A stretch of DNA of 64,000 nucleotides from Nitrospinota bacterium. Lineage in GTDB: Bacteria > UBA8248. The stretch covers positions 5,790 to 69,789 of the forward strand of contig JAPYQX010000001.1 of assembly GCA_029937135.1 (NCBI GenBank), given 5' to 3'. The notes under the pieces are model-generated. The model searched no databases. It was not told the origin of the DNA and worked only from the letters and a program-made list of their open reading frames with translations. Both the position numbers and the translations under genes were made by a program. Below, one piece after another: positions 2,624-7,057 of this stretch (within the stretch, counting starts at the first letter, position 1; the number at the start of each line of letters is the position of its first letter).

Positions 2624-3535
2624 GTGATCAATCTCGATGAGTACACCCATAAATACTGGGGGATCCTGAGCCACCACGCCTACCGGCTCACCGGGAGTAT
2701 TCTCGACGCCGAGGATATCACCCAGGAGACGATGCTCCGCGTCGTGGAGATGGGTCCGGCCCTTGAAAATATCGAGGATCATCACGAGTGGCTCCACATC
2801 GCCGCCACCGAAGCGGCGATGGGAATGATGTGCAAGCCTATCGAGGCCGATGCGTTCGAGCTTCCGGACCTGGTTCAGACCACCGGGGCGGGAGCGGACG
2901 CCGATTCGCGGCCGGTGGGGGGCGGGGACGGATGGCCCGGCGCGACGCTCGATTTTCTGTTTCCGCTTCAATACATGACGCCCGAGCAGCGGGCGCTGGT
3001 TGTGCTCCGGGATGGTTTCGAGGACGGGGACCGCGTTGCCGCCGCCGCGCTTCATGTCACGATTCAGGAGGTGTTCGACATCGCGCGGGAGGCGGAGAGC
3101 GTCCGCGCGGCGGCCCGCAAGCGGTGGGGCTCGACCGTGCCCTTTGTTCCGCTGGCCGCCGATAAAAAAACGGAGCGGGTGTTTGACCGATTTATCGAGG
3201 TGTTCCGGATGAAGGATGCGGTATTGCTTCAGCAGATTATCTGGAAAAACGCCGAGATGGTGCTTGAGACGGAGCGGACAAGCGGCCAGGATTTTGTGGC
3301 CAAGGAGCTCTCTTCGCTTTCAAAGGGGATGGGGAGCAGGCTCAAGTTCGATTCGGTCTGGCTCAACGGGTGCCGCGGCGTTCTGATTTCGGATCGGCGC
3401 GGGCGAAACCCGGAGTGGACTCGGATGGCGCTGGCGCTGGTTCTGTGCAACGAGCGGGAGGTCAGGGCCCTGAAGTGGTATCTGGACGCCCACATCCTGC
3501 GAAAAATCCGGGTGGATGAATCAGCTTCGGAATGA
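2624..3535 (+). CDS. ECF-type RNA polymerase sigma-70 factor with an approximately 130-aa C-terminal extension
   Basis: Region 2 (AEDITQETMLRVVE) and region 4 (MTPEQRALVVLRDGFEDGDRVAAAALHVTIQEVFDIAREAESVRAAARKRW) are recognisable, followed by an extra C-terminal domain. GTG start with an AAAGG motif upstream. Confidence 0.7.
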   Translation: MINLDEYTHKYWGILSHHAYRLTGSILDAEDITQETMLRVVEMGPALENIEDHHEWLHIAATEAAMGMMCKPIEADAFELPDLVQTTGAGADADSRPVGGGDGWPGATLDFLFPLQYMTPEQRALVVLRDGFEDGDRVAAAALHVTIQEVFDIAREAESVRAAARKRWGSTVPFVPLAADKKTERVFDRFIEVFRMKDAVLLQQIIWKNAEMVLETERTSGQDFVAKELSSLSKGMGSRLKFDSVWLNGCRGVLISDRRGRNPEWTRMALALVLCNEREVRALKWYLDAHILRKIRVDESASE

Positions 3536-3729: not shown

Positions 3730-3996
3730 TTAAAGAACCTCTCTGCGCTTCACACGCTCCTCGCACGGAATAATATCGGTGTTGCCCAGCCAGAGGTCCC
3801 AGGCGCTGTGATGGGCGATGTCCACTCCCTCGGCCTGGGCTTTTTCCTGGAGGGCGCACTGGAGGTCGTCGAGGAGTTCGCAATCCATGAGATCAAGATT
3901 TTCCCGCAGGTGGCGGTGAAGTGTCCTGTAGACCAGCTTCGCATCCTCAAAAGAGGCTTCGAGCAGAACCGAGTCGGTTTTTGGCGTGAAAGGCAT
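3730..3996 (-). CDS. hypothetical small protein (88 aa)
   Basis: Internal ATG (MPFTPKTDSV...) of ORF 3730..4056 with a weak AAGGA RBS. No recognisable domain. Convergent with the sigma factor gene. Confidence 0.35.
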   Translation of the reverse strand: MPFTPKTDSVLLEASFEDAKLVYRTLHRHLRENLDLMDCELLDDLQCALQEKAQAEGVDIAHHSAWDLWLGNTDIIPCEERVKRREVL

Positions 3997-4194
3997 CGGC
4001 GTAATTCCTTTCGTTAATGAGATATTATGGTCTGATAAGCATCGATAAAAGCGCACCTAATCGAAGCGCGCGCAGTCTAACCGATTGGCGCGGAGGAGAA
4101 AATCGTTATTTGGCCCGAGGGAAAAATATTATTTGTTGCTTGGGAGAAAATTGATGCCTGGTGCGAAAGAAAAATTCGTTACTTATCGGATGCC

Positions 4195-4247
4195 CAAAAA
4201 AGGAAGGGCCGAGGGCCCAAGAAATTGCAGGGGGATGGGCCCTCGGC
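4195..4247 (-). terminator. Rho-independent terminator downstream of mreB
   Basis: An 11-bp perfect stem (4208-4218 GCCGAGGGCCC pairs with 4237-4247 GGGCCCTCGGC) and an 18-nt loop. A T-run follows on the minus strand (genomic A-run 4195-4204). Confidence 0.6.
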
Positions 4248-4270: not shown

Positions 4271-5302
4271 TTAATTCAAGCAGACCTTCTTGAGGTCCGC
4301 TAAATTATCGAGTACATATCCCGTCCCCCGGACGATAGCGGTCAGGGGATCCTTGGCACGGAAGATGGGCAGATCGGTTTCGGTGTGAAGCCTCGAGCCA
4401 AGGCCCTTGAGCAGCGATCCGCCGCCGGCCAGTACGATTCCCCGCCGCCGGATGTCGGCGGCGAGTTCGGGGCTCGACTTCGAGAGCGCGTTGCGAATCG
4501 ACTCGACGATTGCCCGGACGGGGCTTTCCAGCGCCTCGCGGATCATGGTGTCGGTCATCAGGATGGAGCGGGGAATGCCGGTCTTCACGTTTATCCCCGC
4601 GACTTCTCCCTCGAGTGGTTCGGCAAGAGGCGCCGCCGAGCCGATTTCAATCTTGATCCGCTCGGCCTCGAATGATCCGATAGAGAGGCCGTGCTCGCGG
4701 CGCACGTAGCGCTGAATGCAGGTGTCCATCTCATCGCCCGCCACGCGAAGCGACTCCGAGTAGGCGATAGCGAACTGGGAGATGACCGCCACTTCGGTGG
4801 TTCCGCCCCCGATGTCGATGATCATGGAGGCGGTAGTGTCCTGAATCGGGAGCTTCGATCCGATGGCCGCCGCCATCGGTTCCTCGATGAGGTGAACTTT
4901 TCCGGCGCCGCACTGCATCGAGGAGTCGATCACCGCCTTCATCTCGACACTGGTGATGCCCGAAGGAACGCAGACCATCATTGTCGGCTGGCCGATCCGC
5001 CTTTTGGAAATGACCGAACCGATAAAATACTGGATCATCGCCTTGGTTACATCGAAGTCGGCGATAACGCCGTCCTTCATGGGGCGGACGGTCTTGATCC
5101 TGTCGGGGGTCCGGCCGTACATCTCCTTGGCGCGTTTTCCGACGGCGACGACGCCGCCGCCGTTGTCCGAGTTGAGCGCGACGACGGAGGGCTCGTCGAG
5201 AACGACACCCTTTTCCTTGGTGTATATCAGCGTGTTCGCTGTTCCGAGATCCATGGCAATTTTCGCGCCAAAATACGATCTGAAGCGATTAAATGAGAGC
5301 AT
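4271..5302 (-). CDS. mreB: rod shape-determining protein MreB
   Basis: 343 aa. DLGTANTLIY, ATP-binding and actin-fold motifs are present throughout, and the length is canonical. Confidence 0.95.
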   Translation of the reverse strand: MLSFNRFRSYFGAKIAMDLGTANTLIYTKEKGVVLDEPSVVALNSDNGGGVVAVGKRAKEMYGRTPDRIKTVRPMKDGVIADFDVTKAMIQYFIGSVISKRRIGQPTMMVCVPSGITSVEMKAVIDSSMQCGAGKVHLIEEPMAAAIGSKLPIQDTTASMIIDIGGGTTEVAVISQFAIAYSESLRVAGDEMDTCIQRYVRREHGLSIGSFEAERIKIEIGSAAPLAEPLEGEVAGINVKTGIPRSILMTDTMIREALESPVRAIVESIRNALSKSSPELAADIRRRGIVLAGGGSLLKGLGSRLHTETDLPIFRAKDPLTAIVRGTGYVLDNLADLKKVCLN

Positions 5303-6752
5303 TGGATGTCATCCCCCCTGTAAGACACATCTGATTGATTCCCGAGAATTTGGCTGACTTGAGGGCCTTCGAGGAGGCCAGGAACAGACCGTCCGCGTCG
5401 CCGGCGATTTCCGGGAAACACGAGGCGCCCACGCAGGCGCTGAGCATAATCTCCCTTTGTCCGATTTGAAGGGGGTTTTCGTTGATTGCCATCAGGATGT
5501 GCTCGGCCACCGCCTCCGCGTGCTCGATAGAGGTTCCCTGAAGGAGCAGGAAAAACCGCGGGCCCTCGTAGCGGACCAGAATATCCCCGTCCCTTGCGAA
5601 GGGCTCCAGCAGATCGAAGAGGTGCCGGGTCAGCTCCTCGGGGCCGGACGGCCCGTATTCGTTCCGGATGGAAATTACATTGTCGGGCTCAATGTCCAGC
5701 AAGGCGACGCGCCGCCCGCGCGGGCCGGCGTCCCGGAGAATTTCATCCATGCGGGTCCGGAGAAATTCGAGGTTCCTCCCACCGGTGGCGGGGTCGTATT
5801 CCGCCCGCTGCCGCCATTTTTTCTCTCGTCTCACGCGCGCTATGGCGTCCGCCGCGGGCACGGCAATCACCTCAGCGCGCTTGAGCGCATAGGAGTCGAA
5901 CTGGCCCCGCTGGCGATTGATGAACCCGAGAACGCCAATCGACTTGCCGTCGATGACCAACGGAACAGCCGCCACCGAGCGCGCGCCGAAATCCGGCTCG
6001 CCTTTCTGGAACAGGGGCCTTCTCTTCAGGTCGGGAAGCCTTAGAGGCTCGTTTTTCGTAAGGACGTAGCCCGATACGCTGGAGCGGTCGCTTATCTCGA
6101 TTTTATCCATGAAAAGTTCACCGAACCCGGAGGTGCTGACAAGATGCGAAACGCCTGCTTCCTCGTCTTTTAAAACGAGGAAGCAGGCGGTAAAGGGGAC
6201 CAATTCGCGTGGTACAAGGCAGATCGCGTTTAGCAGTTGATCCTCGCTATCGCAAGAGTGCAGCGAAGCGAGGTAGATGCCGAACGAATCGATGTTGACG
6301 CTCCGGCGTTCAACTTTCGCCGCCATTAGAGCGCCGTCCACCAGGTAAGCGAATTGCTGGGCGAACCCTGCTAGAATTTTTTGGCTTTTATTGGTGAAGG
6401 ACCACCGGTTTTTACCGTCAACGGCGAGGACCCCTGTTGTCATTGTCGAGGGAAGGGGGGTCGCCATGAAGGTCTTGATGTCTTCGTCGCGGCCGTAGTA
6501 GCCGAGAACGATTGTGTCCTTGTTGAATTGGTTGAGACATAGCGGTTCGTTGTTCTTAAGCACCCAGCCCATGAAACCCTGGCCGTATTTGATCGAAGCA
6601 TTGGGAATGATGTGAGGGCTCAGGCTGTGAAAAGTGGTGAGCTGGAATTCTTTCCGGCGTTTATTTTCGAGAAACAGGCAGGCCGAATACGCTTCGGTCA
6701 CATTACTGACCAGGGTCACGAGAGAAAACAGGTCTCTTTCCAGGTTGGTCAT
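5289..6752 (-). CDS. GAF-GAF-GGDEF domain protein with a degenerate diguanylate cyclase active site
   Basis: 487 aa. Two GAF-like regions precede a GGDEF-fold domain (YDPATGGRN...LLDIEPDNV...). The catalytic GGDEF motif reads YEGPRF. The 3' end overlaps the mreB start by 14 nt. Confidence 0.85.
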   Translation of the reverse strand: MTNLERDLFSLVTLVSNVTEAYSACLFLENKRRKEFQLTTFHSLSPHIIPNASIKYGQGFMGWVLKNNEPLCLNQFNKDTIVLGYYGRDEDIKTFMATPLPSTMTTGVLAVDGKNRWSFTNKSQKILAGFAQQFAYLVDGALMAAKVERRSVNIDSFGIYLASLHSCDSEDQLLNAICLVPRELVPFTACFLVLKDEEAGVSHLVSTSGFGELFMDKIEISDRSSVSGYVLTKNEPLRLPDLKRRPLFQKGEPDFGARSVAAVPLVIDGKSIGVLGFINRQRGQFDSYALKRAEVIAVPAADAIARVRREKKWRQRAEYDPATGGRNLEFLRTRMDEILRDAGPRGRRVALLDIEPDNVISIRNEYGPSGPEELTRHLFDLLEPFARDGDILVRYEGPRFFLLLQGTSIEHAEAVAEHILMAINENPLQIGQREIMLSACVGASCFPEIAGDADGLFLASSKALKSAKFSGINQMCLTGGMTSNALI

Positions 6753-6849
6753 GAAAAACTCTGCTTCTGGGCGAATCTGGGAACACCATGGATATTATAT
6801 AGAAGGAGGCGTTATCTCAAGTAAAATTTTAAGTGAGCACCGTAAGTTA

Positions 6850-6865
6850 TTGATATTTATATCAA
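6850..6865. promoter_or_regulatory. 7-2-7 palindrome TTGATATTTATATCAA inside an AT-rich promoter region (6780-6960) upstream of the GAF-GGDEF gene
   Basis: Perfect inverted repeat TTGATAT/ATATCAA in a roughly 180-bp stretch far below genome GC, immediately upstream of the minus-strand gene starting at 6752. Confidence 0.4.
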
Positions 6866-7057
6866 TATTCGTATATTTTTTTTCGAGCGGCAAAATATCC
6901 TAACGTGGTTTATGTAAGAAAACTTGTATATTATTGTTTTATAATGAATTATGGTTAGTAAAACTGGACGGTATGAAAATCGATATATGGGGAGGTCATC
7001 AGGAAATTGGACTATATGTGGGGTTTGGGAAATATCCGCGGCTGGGCGAAGGAATGA

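What the first reader, a model, noticed from the sequence alone, without database searches (positions are those of the whole stretch)
5289..6752. GAF-GAF-GGDEF protein with degenerate active site (YEGPRF), overlapping and presumably co-transcribed with mreB
The GGDEF fold is intact but the catalytic GG(D/E)EF signature is replaced by EGPRF, so the protein is probably not a cyclase and may act as a receptor or sensor. Its 3' end overlaps the mreB start by 14 nt. This is a direct genomic coupling of a signalling protein with the cell-shape actin homolog. Upstream is an unusually AT-rich 300-bp region with a 7-2-7 palindrome (6850-6865).
Basis: partly seen in the sequence, partly recalled or inferred. 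Interest (0 to 1): 0.5.

Follow-up and report, generated by a model that had tools for sequence, protein, structure and literature searches.

The report
Sensor-like protein gene coupled to mreB
This gene encodes a sensor-type protein with a dead enzyme domain, and it belongs to an unnamed family that almost always sits directly in front of the cell-shape gene mreB in at least two bacterial phyla, so it is a strong new candidate partner of the bacterial actin MreB.

Summary
ORF 5289-6752 (-) encodes a 487-aa GAF-GAF-GGDEF protein. Its GG(D/E)EF signature reads EGPRF, other catalytic and substrate-binding residues are also lost, and its stop overlaps the mreB start by 14 nt.

The pairing is not a coincidence. 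In 34 of 34 Nitrospinota loci that could be read, the two genes overlap or lie no more than 4 nt apart, and the mreB ribosome-binding site lies inside the upstream gene's C-terminal Gly-Gly codons. A sigma-70-type promoter in the AT-rich region is conserved across these loci.

It is the N-terminal GAF domain, and to a lesser degree the second one. An exhaustive profile search found more than 100 relatives. About 74 are GAF-GAF only and about 34 carry a GGDEF domain; none of those 34 has a canonical motif. Outside the Nitrospinota clade, mreB is the next gene downstream in 10 of 10 look-ups and 75 of 77 metagenome loci. Named members include Oceanidesulfovibrio indonesiensis.

The I-site RxxD is present here but not conserved in the family. 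The 7-2-7 palindrome is real but not conserved.

Most likely this is a non-enzymatic sensor or adaptor that works with MreB. I found no curated family and no literature. Physical interaction with MreB is inferred, not shown.

The parts
5289..6752 (-). Gene for the 487-aa GAF-GAF-degenerate-GGDEF protein
   Evidence: ORF list; Pfam; AF2 model with pLDDT 85.7. A 100% identical protein, P0001, exists in public data, and 33 orthologue clusters are found in Nitrospinota.
6303..6752 (-). GAF1 (aa 1-150), the most conserved part and the hallmark of the family
   Evidence: Mean pairwise identity is 78% in Nitrospinota, against 63% for GAF2 and 47% for GGDEF. The hallmark SLS..GxGLxGWV..F..D...LGYY..K.F..P..G.L.DS..F..QK is kept in 117 representatives.
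5835..6251 (-). GAF2 (aa 168-306)
   Evidence: Pfam GAF_2 at 168-304. The family profile matches the PtsP GAF domain structures 3ci6 and 3trc.
5334..5804 (-). GGDEF-fold domain (aa 317-473), catalytically dead
   Evidence: Pfam PF00990, 53 bits; alignments to solved cyclases; Foldseek TM 0.92 to 4urs.
5553..5573 (-). Degenerate signature R-Y-E-G-P-R-F (aa 394-400) in place of RxGG(D/E)EF
   Evidence: alignments; 0/33 orthologues are canonical.
5583..5594 (-). RxxD (RDGD, aa 387-390) at the canonical I-site position
   Evidence: Read directly. The Arg is conserved in only 8/33 orthologues; the Asp is invariant.
4271..5302 (-). mreB (343 aa)
   Evidence: Pfam MreB_Mbl 416 bits; NCBIfam PRK13927 437 bits (cutoff 293); TIGR00904 427 bits (cutoff 366).
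5289..5318 (-). Translational-coupling junction. It holds a G-run Shine-Dalgarno (5313-5318, coding Gly-Gly of the upstream protein), the mreB ATG (5300-5302), the 14-nt overlap, and the upstream stop (5289-5291).
   Evidence: Sequence. A G-rich SD inside the upstream gene's 3' end, with stop and start between -29 and +4 nt, is seen in 34/34 Nitrospinota loci.
6792..6820 (-). Sigma-70-type promoter (-35 TTGAGA, 17 nt spacer, -10 TAATAT), preceded by an A-tract
   Evidence: Consensus scan. ACTTGA is invariant or nearly so, and a TAtAaT-like box lies at fixed spacing in 30 aligned upstream regions.
6753..7057 (.). AT-rich intergenic region (36% GC) that holds the promoter and a conserved distal ATCAAT box
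6850..6865 (.). 7-2-7 palindrome TTGATAT-AA-ATATCAA. It is real but not conserved and not statistically unusual.
   Evidence: shuffles give p about 0.1; absent at this position in 35 other loci. Its right arm overlaps the conserved box.
4193..4247 (-). Intrinsic-terminator-like hairpin and U-run after mreB, marking the end of a two-gene operon
   Evidence: Scan. RNA fold: 12-bp GC stem, -32.4 kcal/mol, z = -3.9.
3730..4056 (-). Small conserved ORF downstream of mreB (probably 88 aa, starting at 3996). It is a conserved neighbour, probably a separate transcript, of unknown function.
   Evidence: Found after mreB in 31 of 34 Nitrospinota loci; no Pfam hit.

Best explanation
The gene encodes a soluble, probably dimeric signalling-type protein. 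It has two GAF sensor domains joined by long helices to a GGDEF domain that keeps its fold but cannot make c-di-GMP.

It is the Nitrospinota form of an unnamed family whose defining part is a distinctive N-terminal GAF domain plus a second GAF. That family's gene lies directly upstream of mreB on the same strand, in Nitrospinota, in Thermodesulfobacteriota and in further unplaced lineages. In this window the two genes form a bicistronic operon: a conserved sigma-70-type promoter in the AT-rich region, then the GAF-GAF-GGDEF gene, then mreB, then a terminator. The mreB ribosome-binding site is embedded in the last codons of the upstream gene, so the two proteins are made together.

The most likely function is a non-enzymatic sensor or adaptor that acts on MreB. 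It would sense a cytoplasmic small molecule through its PtsP-like GAF domains and modulate MreB filament assembly or elongasome activity. The degenerate GGDEF would serve as a lineage-specific dimerisation or interaction module.

Shown here: the domain architecture, the loss of catalytic residues, the conserved synteny, the conserved coupling junction, and the conserved promoter.

Inferred: a physical or functional interaction with MreB, ligand sensing, and the direction of regulation.
For: Architecture and inactivation. None of 33 orthologues and none of 34 distant long forms is canonical.

Synteny in Nitrospinota: 34/34 loci, with gaps of -29 to +4 nt and the SD inside the upstream gene. This holds even though the upstream flanks differ: NUDIX/MBL is adjacent in some loci and 1.5-3 kb away in others.

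Synteny beyond the clade: P0036, P0037, P0050, P0051, P0070, P0075, P0214, P0083, P0092 and P0173 are all followed by mreB. In the metagenome scan, 75 of 77 readable loci have mreB next, 50 of the 75 with a gap of 20 nt or less. These loci form 51 clusters at 90% identity and 23 at 70%.

The flanking genes differ between lineages, so only the pair is conserved: gatB/IF-2B, dnaN/gyrB, and inositol monophosphatase.

GAF1 is as conserved as MreB itself: 78% mean pairwise identity, against 72-76% for MreB relative to the window protein.

The promoter is conserved and a terminator follows mreB.

GAF similarity to the PtsP GAF domain.
Against: There is no experimental or structural evidence of contact with MreB; gene order alone cannot prove it.

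Two of 77 loci keep the GAF-GAF gene but lack mreB next to it, so the protein can exist without an adjacent mreB.

Some loci have gaps of 100-530 nt, so coupling is not universal.

No ligand is known. Many of the conserved GAF1 residues are generic GAF core motifs.

I could not test whether these genomes carry a second mreB or where mreCD and rodZ lie.
Confidence: 0.6

Rival explanations
1. It is a c-di-GMP receptor. The degenerate GGDEF domain binds c-di-GMP at the retained I-site (RDGD), as in PelD or PopA, and passes the second-messenger level on to MreB.
For: RxxD lies at exactly the canonical distance, 5 residues before the signature, in this protein and its closest relatives. The I-site Asp (D390) is invariant in 33 orthologues. 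The GGDEF fold is kept under purifying selection (47% identity).
Against: The I-site Arg is kept in only 8 of 33 Nitrospinota orthologues; elsewhere it is S, T, N, K, Q or A. About 74 of about 108 family representatives have no GGDEF domain yet keep mreB downstream. c-di-GMP binding therefore cannot be the conserved basis of the pairing. At most it is an added layer in the window's sub-clade.
Confidence: 0.15
2. It is a neighbour with no functional link to MreB. The GAF protein is an independent signalling protein that shares a promoter with mreB for historical or expression-level reasons.
For: Only synteny links the two genes. Two loci keep the GAF gene without mreB. In E. coli the degenerate GGDEF-EAL gene csrD also sits directly upstream of mreB. 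To my knowledge its known function, CsrB/C turnover, has nothing to do with MreB.
Against: The adjacency survives across at least two phyla while every other neighbour changes. Overlapping or near-touching stop and start codons are maintained in most loci. That degree of conservation is typical of functionally linked products. The csrD-mreB pair has a 304-bp gap and only GGDEF-domain-level similarity to this family.
Confidence: 0.15
3. It regulates mreB expression rather than the MreB protein. For example, translation of the upstream ORF could gate mreB translation, or the protein could bind the transcript.
For: The mreB SD lies inside the upstream coding sequence, and the overlap is conserved. 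Translation of mreB therefore probably depends on ribosomes finishing the upstream gene.
Against: Coupling by itself needs only an ORF, not a 300-490-aa protein whose GAF1 domain is 78% conserved. No nucleic-acid-binding domain was detected. Loci with gaps of 100-500 nt keep the protein.
Confidence: 0.08
4. It is an active diguanylate cyclase with an unorthodox active site.
For: The GGDEF fold is intact. A few distant family members have near-canonical motifs such as GGDNF, RGEEF and AGEEF.
Against: Both acidic signature residues are replaced by Pro and Arg. The guanine-binding Asn and Asp, and the Lys and His of the substrate helix, are also replaced. In many orthologues this helix carries a 4-5-residue deletion.
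Confidence: 0.02

Closest known systems
Degenerate GGDEF proteins that act without catalysis (PelD and PopA as c-di-GMP receptors; GdpS; CsrD)
   Same: The GGDEF fold is retained while the GG(D/E)EF signature and catalytic residues are lost. In this particular protein the RxxD I-site is retained, as in PelD and PopA.
   Different: The I-site is not conserved across the family, and the GGDEF domain is dispensable in most relatives. The conserved element is an N-terminal GAF domain, and the conserved partner gene is mreB. Neither is a feature of PelD, PopA or GdpS (my knowledge of those proteins).
E. coli CsrD (YhdA), a degenerate GGDEF-EAL protein encoded directly upstream of mreB
   Same: A catalytically dead GGDEF protein gene lies immediately upstream of mreB on the same strand. 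The two signatures look alike: RYHRSDF in CsrD, RYEGPRF here.
   Different: CsrD has an EAL domain and, to my knowledge, transmembrane segments, and it has no GAF domains. The similarity is limited to 116 columns of the GGDEF domain (27% identity, hhalign probability 88%). The NCBIfam CsrD model scores 26 bits against a cutoff of 663. A 304-bp gap separates csrD from mreB, and in E. coli mreB is followed by mreCD.
Tandem-GAF signalling proteins (PDE2/5/6 regulatory segments, cyanobacterial CyaB2, GAF-GGDEF cyclases such as P. aeruginosa Dcsbis)
   Same: The arrangement is the same: GAF-GAF, a long helix, then an output domain. These are the best Foldseek matches.
   Different: In those proteins the output domains are active enzymes controlled by cyclic-nucleotide binding. 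Here the output is dead or absent, and GAF1 has no significant sequence match to any solved GAF.
PtsP (EI-Ntr) N-terminal GAF domain
   Same: It is the closest characterised GAF by sequence. NCBIfam PRK11061 matches residues 6-146 (E = 1.7e-10) and reaches 92 bits in relative P0092. PDB entries 3ci6 and 3trc match GAF2. IMG labels some members 'GAF and PtsI domain'.
   Different: There is no PtsI phosphotransferase part, and the scores are far below the family cutoff of 583. From memory, the PtsP GAF senses glutamine and 2-oxoglutarate. This is a lead for the ligand, not evidence.
GGDEF-family proteins that moonlight in cell-wall growth or division (YfiN/DgcN acting on the divisome; RgsP in Rhizobiales)
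   Same: These are precedents for GGDEF-domain proteins acting on morphogenetic machinery by protein-protein contact rather than through c-di-GMP output (PMC4992967, PMC6107284; found).
   Different: Both are membrane proteins with other sensor domains, they act on FtsZ or on polar growth, and they are not encoded with mreB.

Membership tests
Diguanylate cyclase (GGDEF domain, PF00990) | GGDEF-domain fold | tested here: met
   Pfam 53 bits against cutoff 23.8. Foldseek TM 0.92 and rmsd 1.7 A to the T. maritima GGDEF domain 4urs.
Diguanylate cyclase (GGDEF domain, PF00990) | GG(D/E)EF active-site signature with two acidic residues for metal binding and catalysis | tested here: not met
   The signature reads E396-G-P-R-F400, so the acidic pair is replaced by Pro and Arg. 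None of 33 orthologues is canonical.
Diguanylate cyclase (GGDEF domain, PF00990) | Substrate and metal-binding residues of the DxFKxxNDxxGHxxGD segment (PleD D327, K332, N335, H340, D344; numbering from memory) | tested here: not met
   The aligned residues are E355, I360, R363, P368 and E372. The segment is partly deleted in many orthologues.
c-di-GMP receptor of the degenerate-GGDEF type (PelD/PopA-like) | RxxD inhibitory-site motif 5 residues upstream of the signature | tested here: met
   RDGD at 387-390. The Arg is kept in only 8/33 orthologues.
c-di-GMP receptor of the degenerate-GGDEF type (PelD/PopA-like) | Binding of c-di-GMP | not testable with these tools
   This needs DRaCALA or ITC on the purified protein.
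GAF domain proteins (PF01590/PF13185) | Two GAF folds in tandem | tested here: met
   Pfam GAF_2, 79 bits, two stretches. The AF2 model and Foldseek matches point to PDE2/5/6 and CyaB2 tandem GAFs.
CsrD (RNase E specificity factor) | GGDEF plus EAL domains, with a score above the NCBIfam NF008281 cutoff | tested here: not met
   No EAL hit. NF008281 scores 25.8 bits against a cutoff of 663. hhalign covers the GGDEF domain only.
Unnamed mreB-linked GAF-GAF family (defined here) | N-terminal GAF with the hallmark SLS..GxGLxGWV..F..LGYY..K.F..P..G.L.DS..F..QK | tested here: met
   The window protein carries all hallmark positions, and these are conserved in 117 representatives.
Unnamed mreB-linked GAF-GAF family (defined here) | mreB is the next gene downstream on the same strand | tested here: met
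   In the window the genes overlap by 14 nt. The pairing holds in 34/34 Nitrospinota loci, 10/10 look-ups and 75/77 metagenome loci.
MreB (the downstream gene) | Scores above the curated MreB model cutoffs | tested here: met
   PRK13927 436.6 bits (cutoff 293) and TIGR00904 427.5 bits (cutoff 365.75).

The most novel reading that the evidence does not exclude
The GAF-GAF(-dead GGDEF) proteins are a widespread, so far unrecognised class of direct MreB partners. They would feed a metabolite signal, read by PtsP-like GAF domains, straight into the actin-like cytoskeleton. They occur in Nitrospinota, in Thermodesulfobacteriota (including gut Desulfovibrionaceae-like organisms) and in other lineages. 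In every locus examined, mreB is not followed by mreCD, so this protein rather than MreC/MreD is its constant genomic companion there.
Probability: 0.35. Interest if true: 0.8.

Novelty: new variant of a known kind. Interest (0 to 1): 0.62.

Why it matters
MreB is the central organiser of rod-shaped growth, and few cytoplasmic regulators of it are known. A protein family that is nearly always encoded with mreB, often translationally coupled to it, and spread across phyla with cultured and genetically tractable members (Desulfovibrionales) would be a concrete candidate for how metabolic or signalling state is passed to the cell-wall elongation machinery. It would also give an example of a GGDEF domain decaying, and being repeatedly lost, after its host protein took on a non-enzymatic role. 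The idea can be tested directly with standard interaction and deletion experiments.

Tried and rejected
(1) I looked for mreC, mreD, pbp2 and rodA next to mreB. ORFs at 47.6-56.8 kb that seemed the right size turned out to be an EamA transporter, a ferredoxin, an oxidoreductase, AOR, SHMT and others. Downstream genes in other lineages are inositol monophosphatase, glycosyltransferase, beta-lactamase-like or amidase genes, never mreC.

(2) The palindrome as an operator: rejected as a conserved element.

(3) A specific relationship to CsrD: only GGDEF-domain-level similarity.

(4) Transmembrane anchoring: the two most hydrophobic 19-residue windows (176-194 and 260-278) are GAF2 core strands in the model, so the protein is predicted to be soluble.

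(5) The broad alignment A6 was too diverse for the metagenome scan, so I used the group-1 alignment A7. As a result, large-scale context sampling outside Nitrospinota covers one sub-group well and the others only through single look-ups.

(6) The third word-indexed homology search added little beyond two new named or contextualised members.

(7) Taxonomy of the gatB/IF-2B-linked sub-group could not be established, because no names were on record.

(8) Contig L051 ends right after the gene, so its context is undetermined.

(9) The AFDB Foldseek library was unavailable.

(10) Literature searches for GAF or GGDEF together with mreB, Nitrospina or Desulfovibrio returned nothing relevant.

(11) Terminator-like hits inside the coding region (5425-5440 and 5561-5577) have weak U-runs and lie in conserved codons. 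I treated them as chance.
Full report
**What is at the coordinates.** The ORF at 5289..6752 on the minus strand is real. It has an ATG start and encodes 487 aa. It is followed by mreB at 4271..5302, so the stop of the first gene and the start of the second overlap by 14 nt.

Pfam finds two GAF domains (N-terminal and 168-306) and a GGDEF domain (317-473, 53 bits). NCBIfam finds no specific family, only generic GGDEF and PtsP-like GAF similarity.

An AlphaFold2 model built on 33 orthologues is confident (pLDDT 85.7). Foldseek matches it to tandem-GAF regulators (PDE2/5/6, CyaB2) and to GAF- or phytochrome-linked cyclases. The GGDEF part superposes on the T. maritima GGDEF domain with TM 0.92 and rmsd 1.7 A. 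The fold is therefore intact.

mreB is a standard MreB: PRK13927 scores 437 bits against a cutoff of 293.

**The active site.** In ungapped alignments to solved cyclases, RYEGPRF (aa 394-400) lines up with R-x-GGDEF. The first Gly is Glu, and the two acidic residues are Pro and Arg. In the substrate and metal segment, I-D-L-D-R-F-K-H-I-N-D-S-L-G-H-P-I-G-D of an active enzyme corresponds to I-E-P-D-N-V-I-S-I-R-N-E-Y-G-P-S-G-P-E. The equivalents of PleD K332, N335, H340 and D344 (numbering from memory) are therefore I, R, P and E.

This is not a sequencing slip. None of 33 Nitrospinota orthologues has GG[DE]EF, and many carry a 4-5-residue deletion in that helix. The protein is not a cyclase.

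Across the orthologues, however, the Arg is kept in only 8 of 33, while the Asp is invariant.

**The gene pair in Nitrospinota.** The protein has a 100% identical database entry and 33 orthologue clusters down to 46% identity. These are labelled Nitrospinae, Nitrospinota or (for some MAGs) Tectomicrobia. Similarity then drops sharply, from E = 1e-83 to 1e-22.

A scan of one genome per GTDB species found 36 loci. Two are cut inside the gene. In the other 34, mreB follows directly.

Reading the junctions shows stop and start between -29 and +4 nt in all 34, with a run of G (GGGGGG or GGAG) 8-16 nt before the mreB start. In the window this run is at 5313-5318 and encodes the conserved C-terminal Gly-Gly. 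The mreB ribosome-binding site is thus part of the upstream coding sequence, which is the classic layout for translational coupling.

Upstream neighbours are not fixed. NUDIX/MBL/OmpA/FBPase are adjacent in some loci and 1.5-3 kb away or absent in others. A small ORF (window 3730-4056) usually follows mreB.

**Transcription signals.** The 305-bp spacer at 6753-7057 is AT-rich: 36% GC overall and 30% at its core, against about 58% in the flanks.

A -35 TTGAGA / 17 nt / -10 TAATAT promoter lies at 6820-6792. It is the best-conserved non-coding element in 30 aligned upstream regions. ACTTGA is invariant or nearly so, it is preceded by an A-tract, and a TAtAaT-like box follows at fixed spacing. 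A distal ATCAAT box is also conserved.

The palindrome itself is absent from every other locus, and about 10% of shuffles of the region contain an equivalent one.

After mreB there is a 12-bp GC-rich hairpin followed by a U-run (-32.4 kcal/mol, z = -3.9). The unit therefore looks like promoter, GAF-GAF-GGDEF gene, mreB, terminator.

**Where the conservation lies.** Within Nitrospinota, mean pairwise identity is 78% for GAF1, 63% for GAF2 and 47% for the GGDEF domain. GAF1 is about as conserved as MreB, which is 72-76% identical to the window protein across the same loci.

**The pairing extends beyond Nitrospinota and does not need the GGDEF domain.** Two weak hits of the first search, P0036 and P0037, are proteins of about 320 aa with GAF-GAF only. 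They are 38-40% identical to GAF1. Both are followed at once by an MreB gene.

An exhaustive HMMER search with a GAF-GAF profile found 374 representative clusters at E <= 1e-30. Among the best 150 hits:
- about 74 are 284-356 aa (GAF-GAF only);
- about 34 are 453-509 aa (with a GGDEF domain);
- about 35 are giant multi-GAF proteins that probably score by repetition.

None of the 34 long forms has a canonical GG[DE]EF. The GAF1 hallmark is kept in 117 representatives.

Context look-ups across sub-groups all show mreB as the next gene on the same strand: P0050, P0051, P0070, P0075, P0214, P0083, P0092 and P0173, in addition to P0036 and P0037. That is 10 of 10; an eleventh contig ends too early to tell.

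A metagenome scan with the largest sub-group returned 80 loci. mreB is directly downstream in 75, absent in 2, and undetermined in 3. In 50 of the 75 the gap is 20 nt or less. The loci form 51 clusters at 90% identity and 23 at 70%.

In the two exceptions the GAF-GAF gene is followed by the inositol-monophosphatase gene that normally comes after mreB, so mreB is cleanly missing there.

Flanking genes differ between lineages: gatB and an IF-2B-family gene, dnaN/gyrB, inositol monophosphatase, glycosyltransferase, and amidase. In no locus examined is mreB followed by mreC.

Named members are Oceanidesulfovibrio indonesiensis WP_144303992.1, MAGs of Desulfobacteraceae and Thermodesulfobacteriota, and short forms labelled Nitrospinota. 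Some loci come from human-gut and other host-associated metagenomes.

**Interpretation.** Two points are settled. The protein cannot be a cyclase. Its association with mreB is ancient, is maintained while everything around it changes, and is often enforced at the level of translation.

The best reading is that this family works with MreB. Because the constant part is GAF1 (with GAF2), and the GGDEF domain is degenerate or absent, the GGDEF domain is a lineage-specific appendage. It is kept as a fold, perhaps for dimerisation or for a further contact, and is not the reason for the pairing.

The GAF domains are closest to the PtsP (EI-Ntr) GAF domain. From memory, that domain senses glutamine and 2-oxoglutarate. 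This is a lead for a metabolite input, not evidence.

A c-di-GMP receptor role through the I-site remains possible for the window's own sub-clade, but it cannot be the conserved function. Direct binding to MreB, the ligand, and the effect on MreB are all inferred. None could be tested here.

**Comparison with what is known.**
- Degenerate GGDEF proteins acting as receptors or adaptors are a known kind (PelD, PopA, GdpS, CsrD).
- E. coli csrD, a dead GGDEF-EAL gene, also lies directly upstream of mreB. The resemblance is limited to the GGDEF domain, there is a 304-bp gap, and mreCD follow mreB there. I treat it as an analogy at most.
- GGDEF-family proteins acting on division or polar growth (YfiN/DgcN, RgsP) are functional precedents (PMC4992967, PMC6107284).
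- I found no curated family model and no paper linking a GAF or GAF-GGDEF protein with mreB. The library searched is incomplete, so this shows only that nothing turned up in it.

**Verdict.** The finding is larger than reported: the window holds one member of an apparently undescribed, multi-phylum family of GAF-GAF proteins encoded with mreB. It counts as a new variant of a known kind, a non-enzymatic signalling-domain protein with a new and conserved partner. It is of moderate to high interest because the hypothesis is specific and testable in cultured organisms.

Noticed in passing
window 3730-4056 (-), probably 3730-3996: A small ORF (about 88 aa from the internal Met, no Pfam hit) follows mreB, after the terminator-like hairpin, in 31 of 34 Nitrospinota loci. 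It is a conserved neighbour of unknown function.
   Followed up: partly
window 2624-3535 (+): A 303-aa protein with only a sigma-70 region-2 hit (ECF-like) lies convergent to the mreB module. It recurs downstream of the module in most Nitrospinota loci, at variable distance.
   Followed up: partly
L006, L007, L009, L011-L030 and L036, last ~40 nt before the GAF gene start (alignment A2): Many Nitrospinota loci, but not the window's own clade, have a conserved leader of the form GTTCCCAATCCGTCCC-N-TTGGGTG. A CCCAA(T)/(A)TTGGG stem there could pair with the likely Shine-Dalgarno, and some stem positions change on both sides between clades. This may be a translational control element.
   Followed up: no
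L038, L041, L042-L044, L046: In one sub-group the module is gatB, then an IF-2B-family (MtnA-like) gene, then GAF-GAF, then mreB. The IF-2B-family gene overlaps the GAF gene start by about 17-38 nt. The taxonomy of this sub-group could not be established.
   Followed up: partly
L054 and L072; compare L056, L059, L068, L085, L094: In the Desulfovibrionales-like sub-group an inositol-monophosphatase-family gene usually follows mreB. In two loci that gene follows the GAF-GAF gene directly, so mreB is cleanly absent from its usual place.
   Followed up: partly
L037 (E. coli K-12 NC_000913.3, 3396000-3405000): csrD, a degenerate GGDEF-EAL gene, lies directly upstream of mreB-mreC-mreD on the same strand with a 304-bp gap. 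This parallels the arrangement studied here, but the only homology is at the level of the GGDEF domain.
   Followed up: yes
proteins P0067, P0068, P0082, P0096 and others: Giant proteins of 1,400-3,950 aa, with up to 17 GAF-like stretches, score very highly against the GAF-GAF profile. I did not look at their nature or context.
   Followed up: no
L133 3377-4697: In one long-form lineage, mreB is followed by a 117-aa ORF with no Pfam hit and then an Amidase_3 (cell-wall amidase) gene, which is another link to the cell wall.
   Followed up: no
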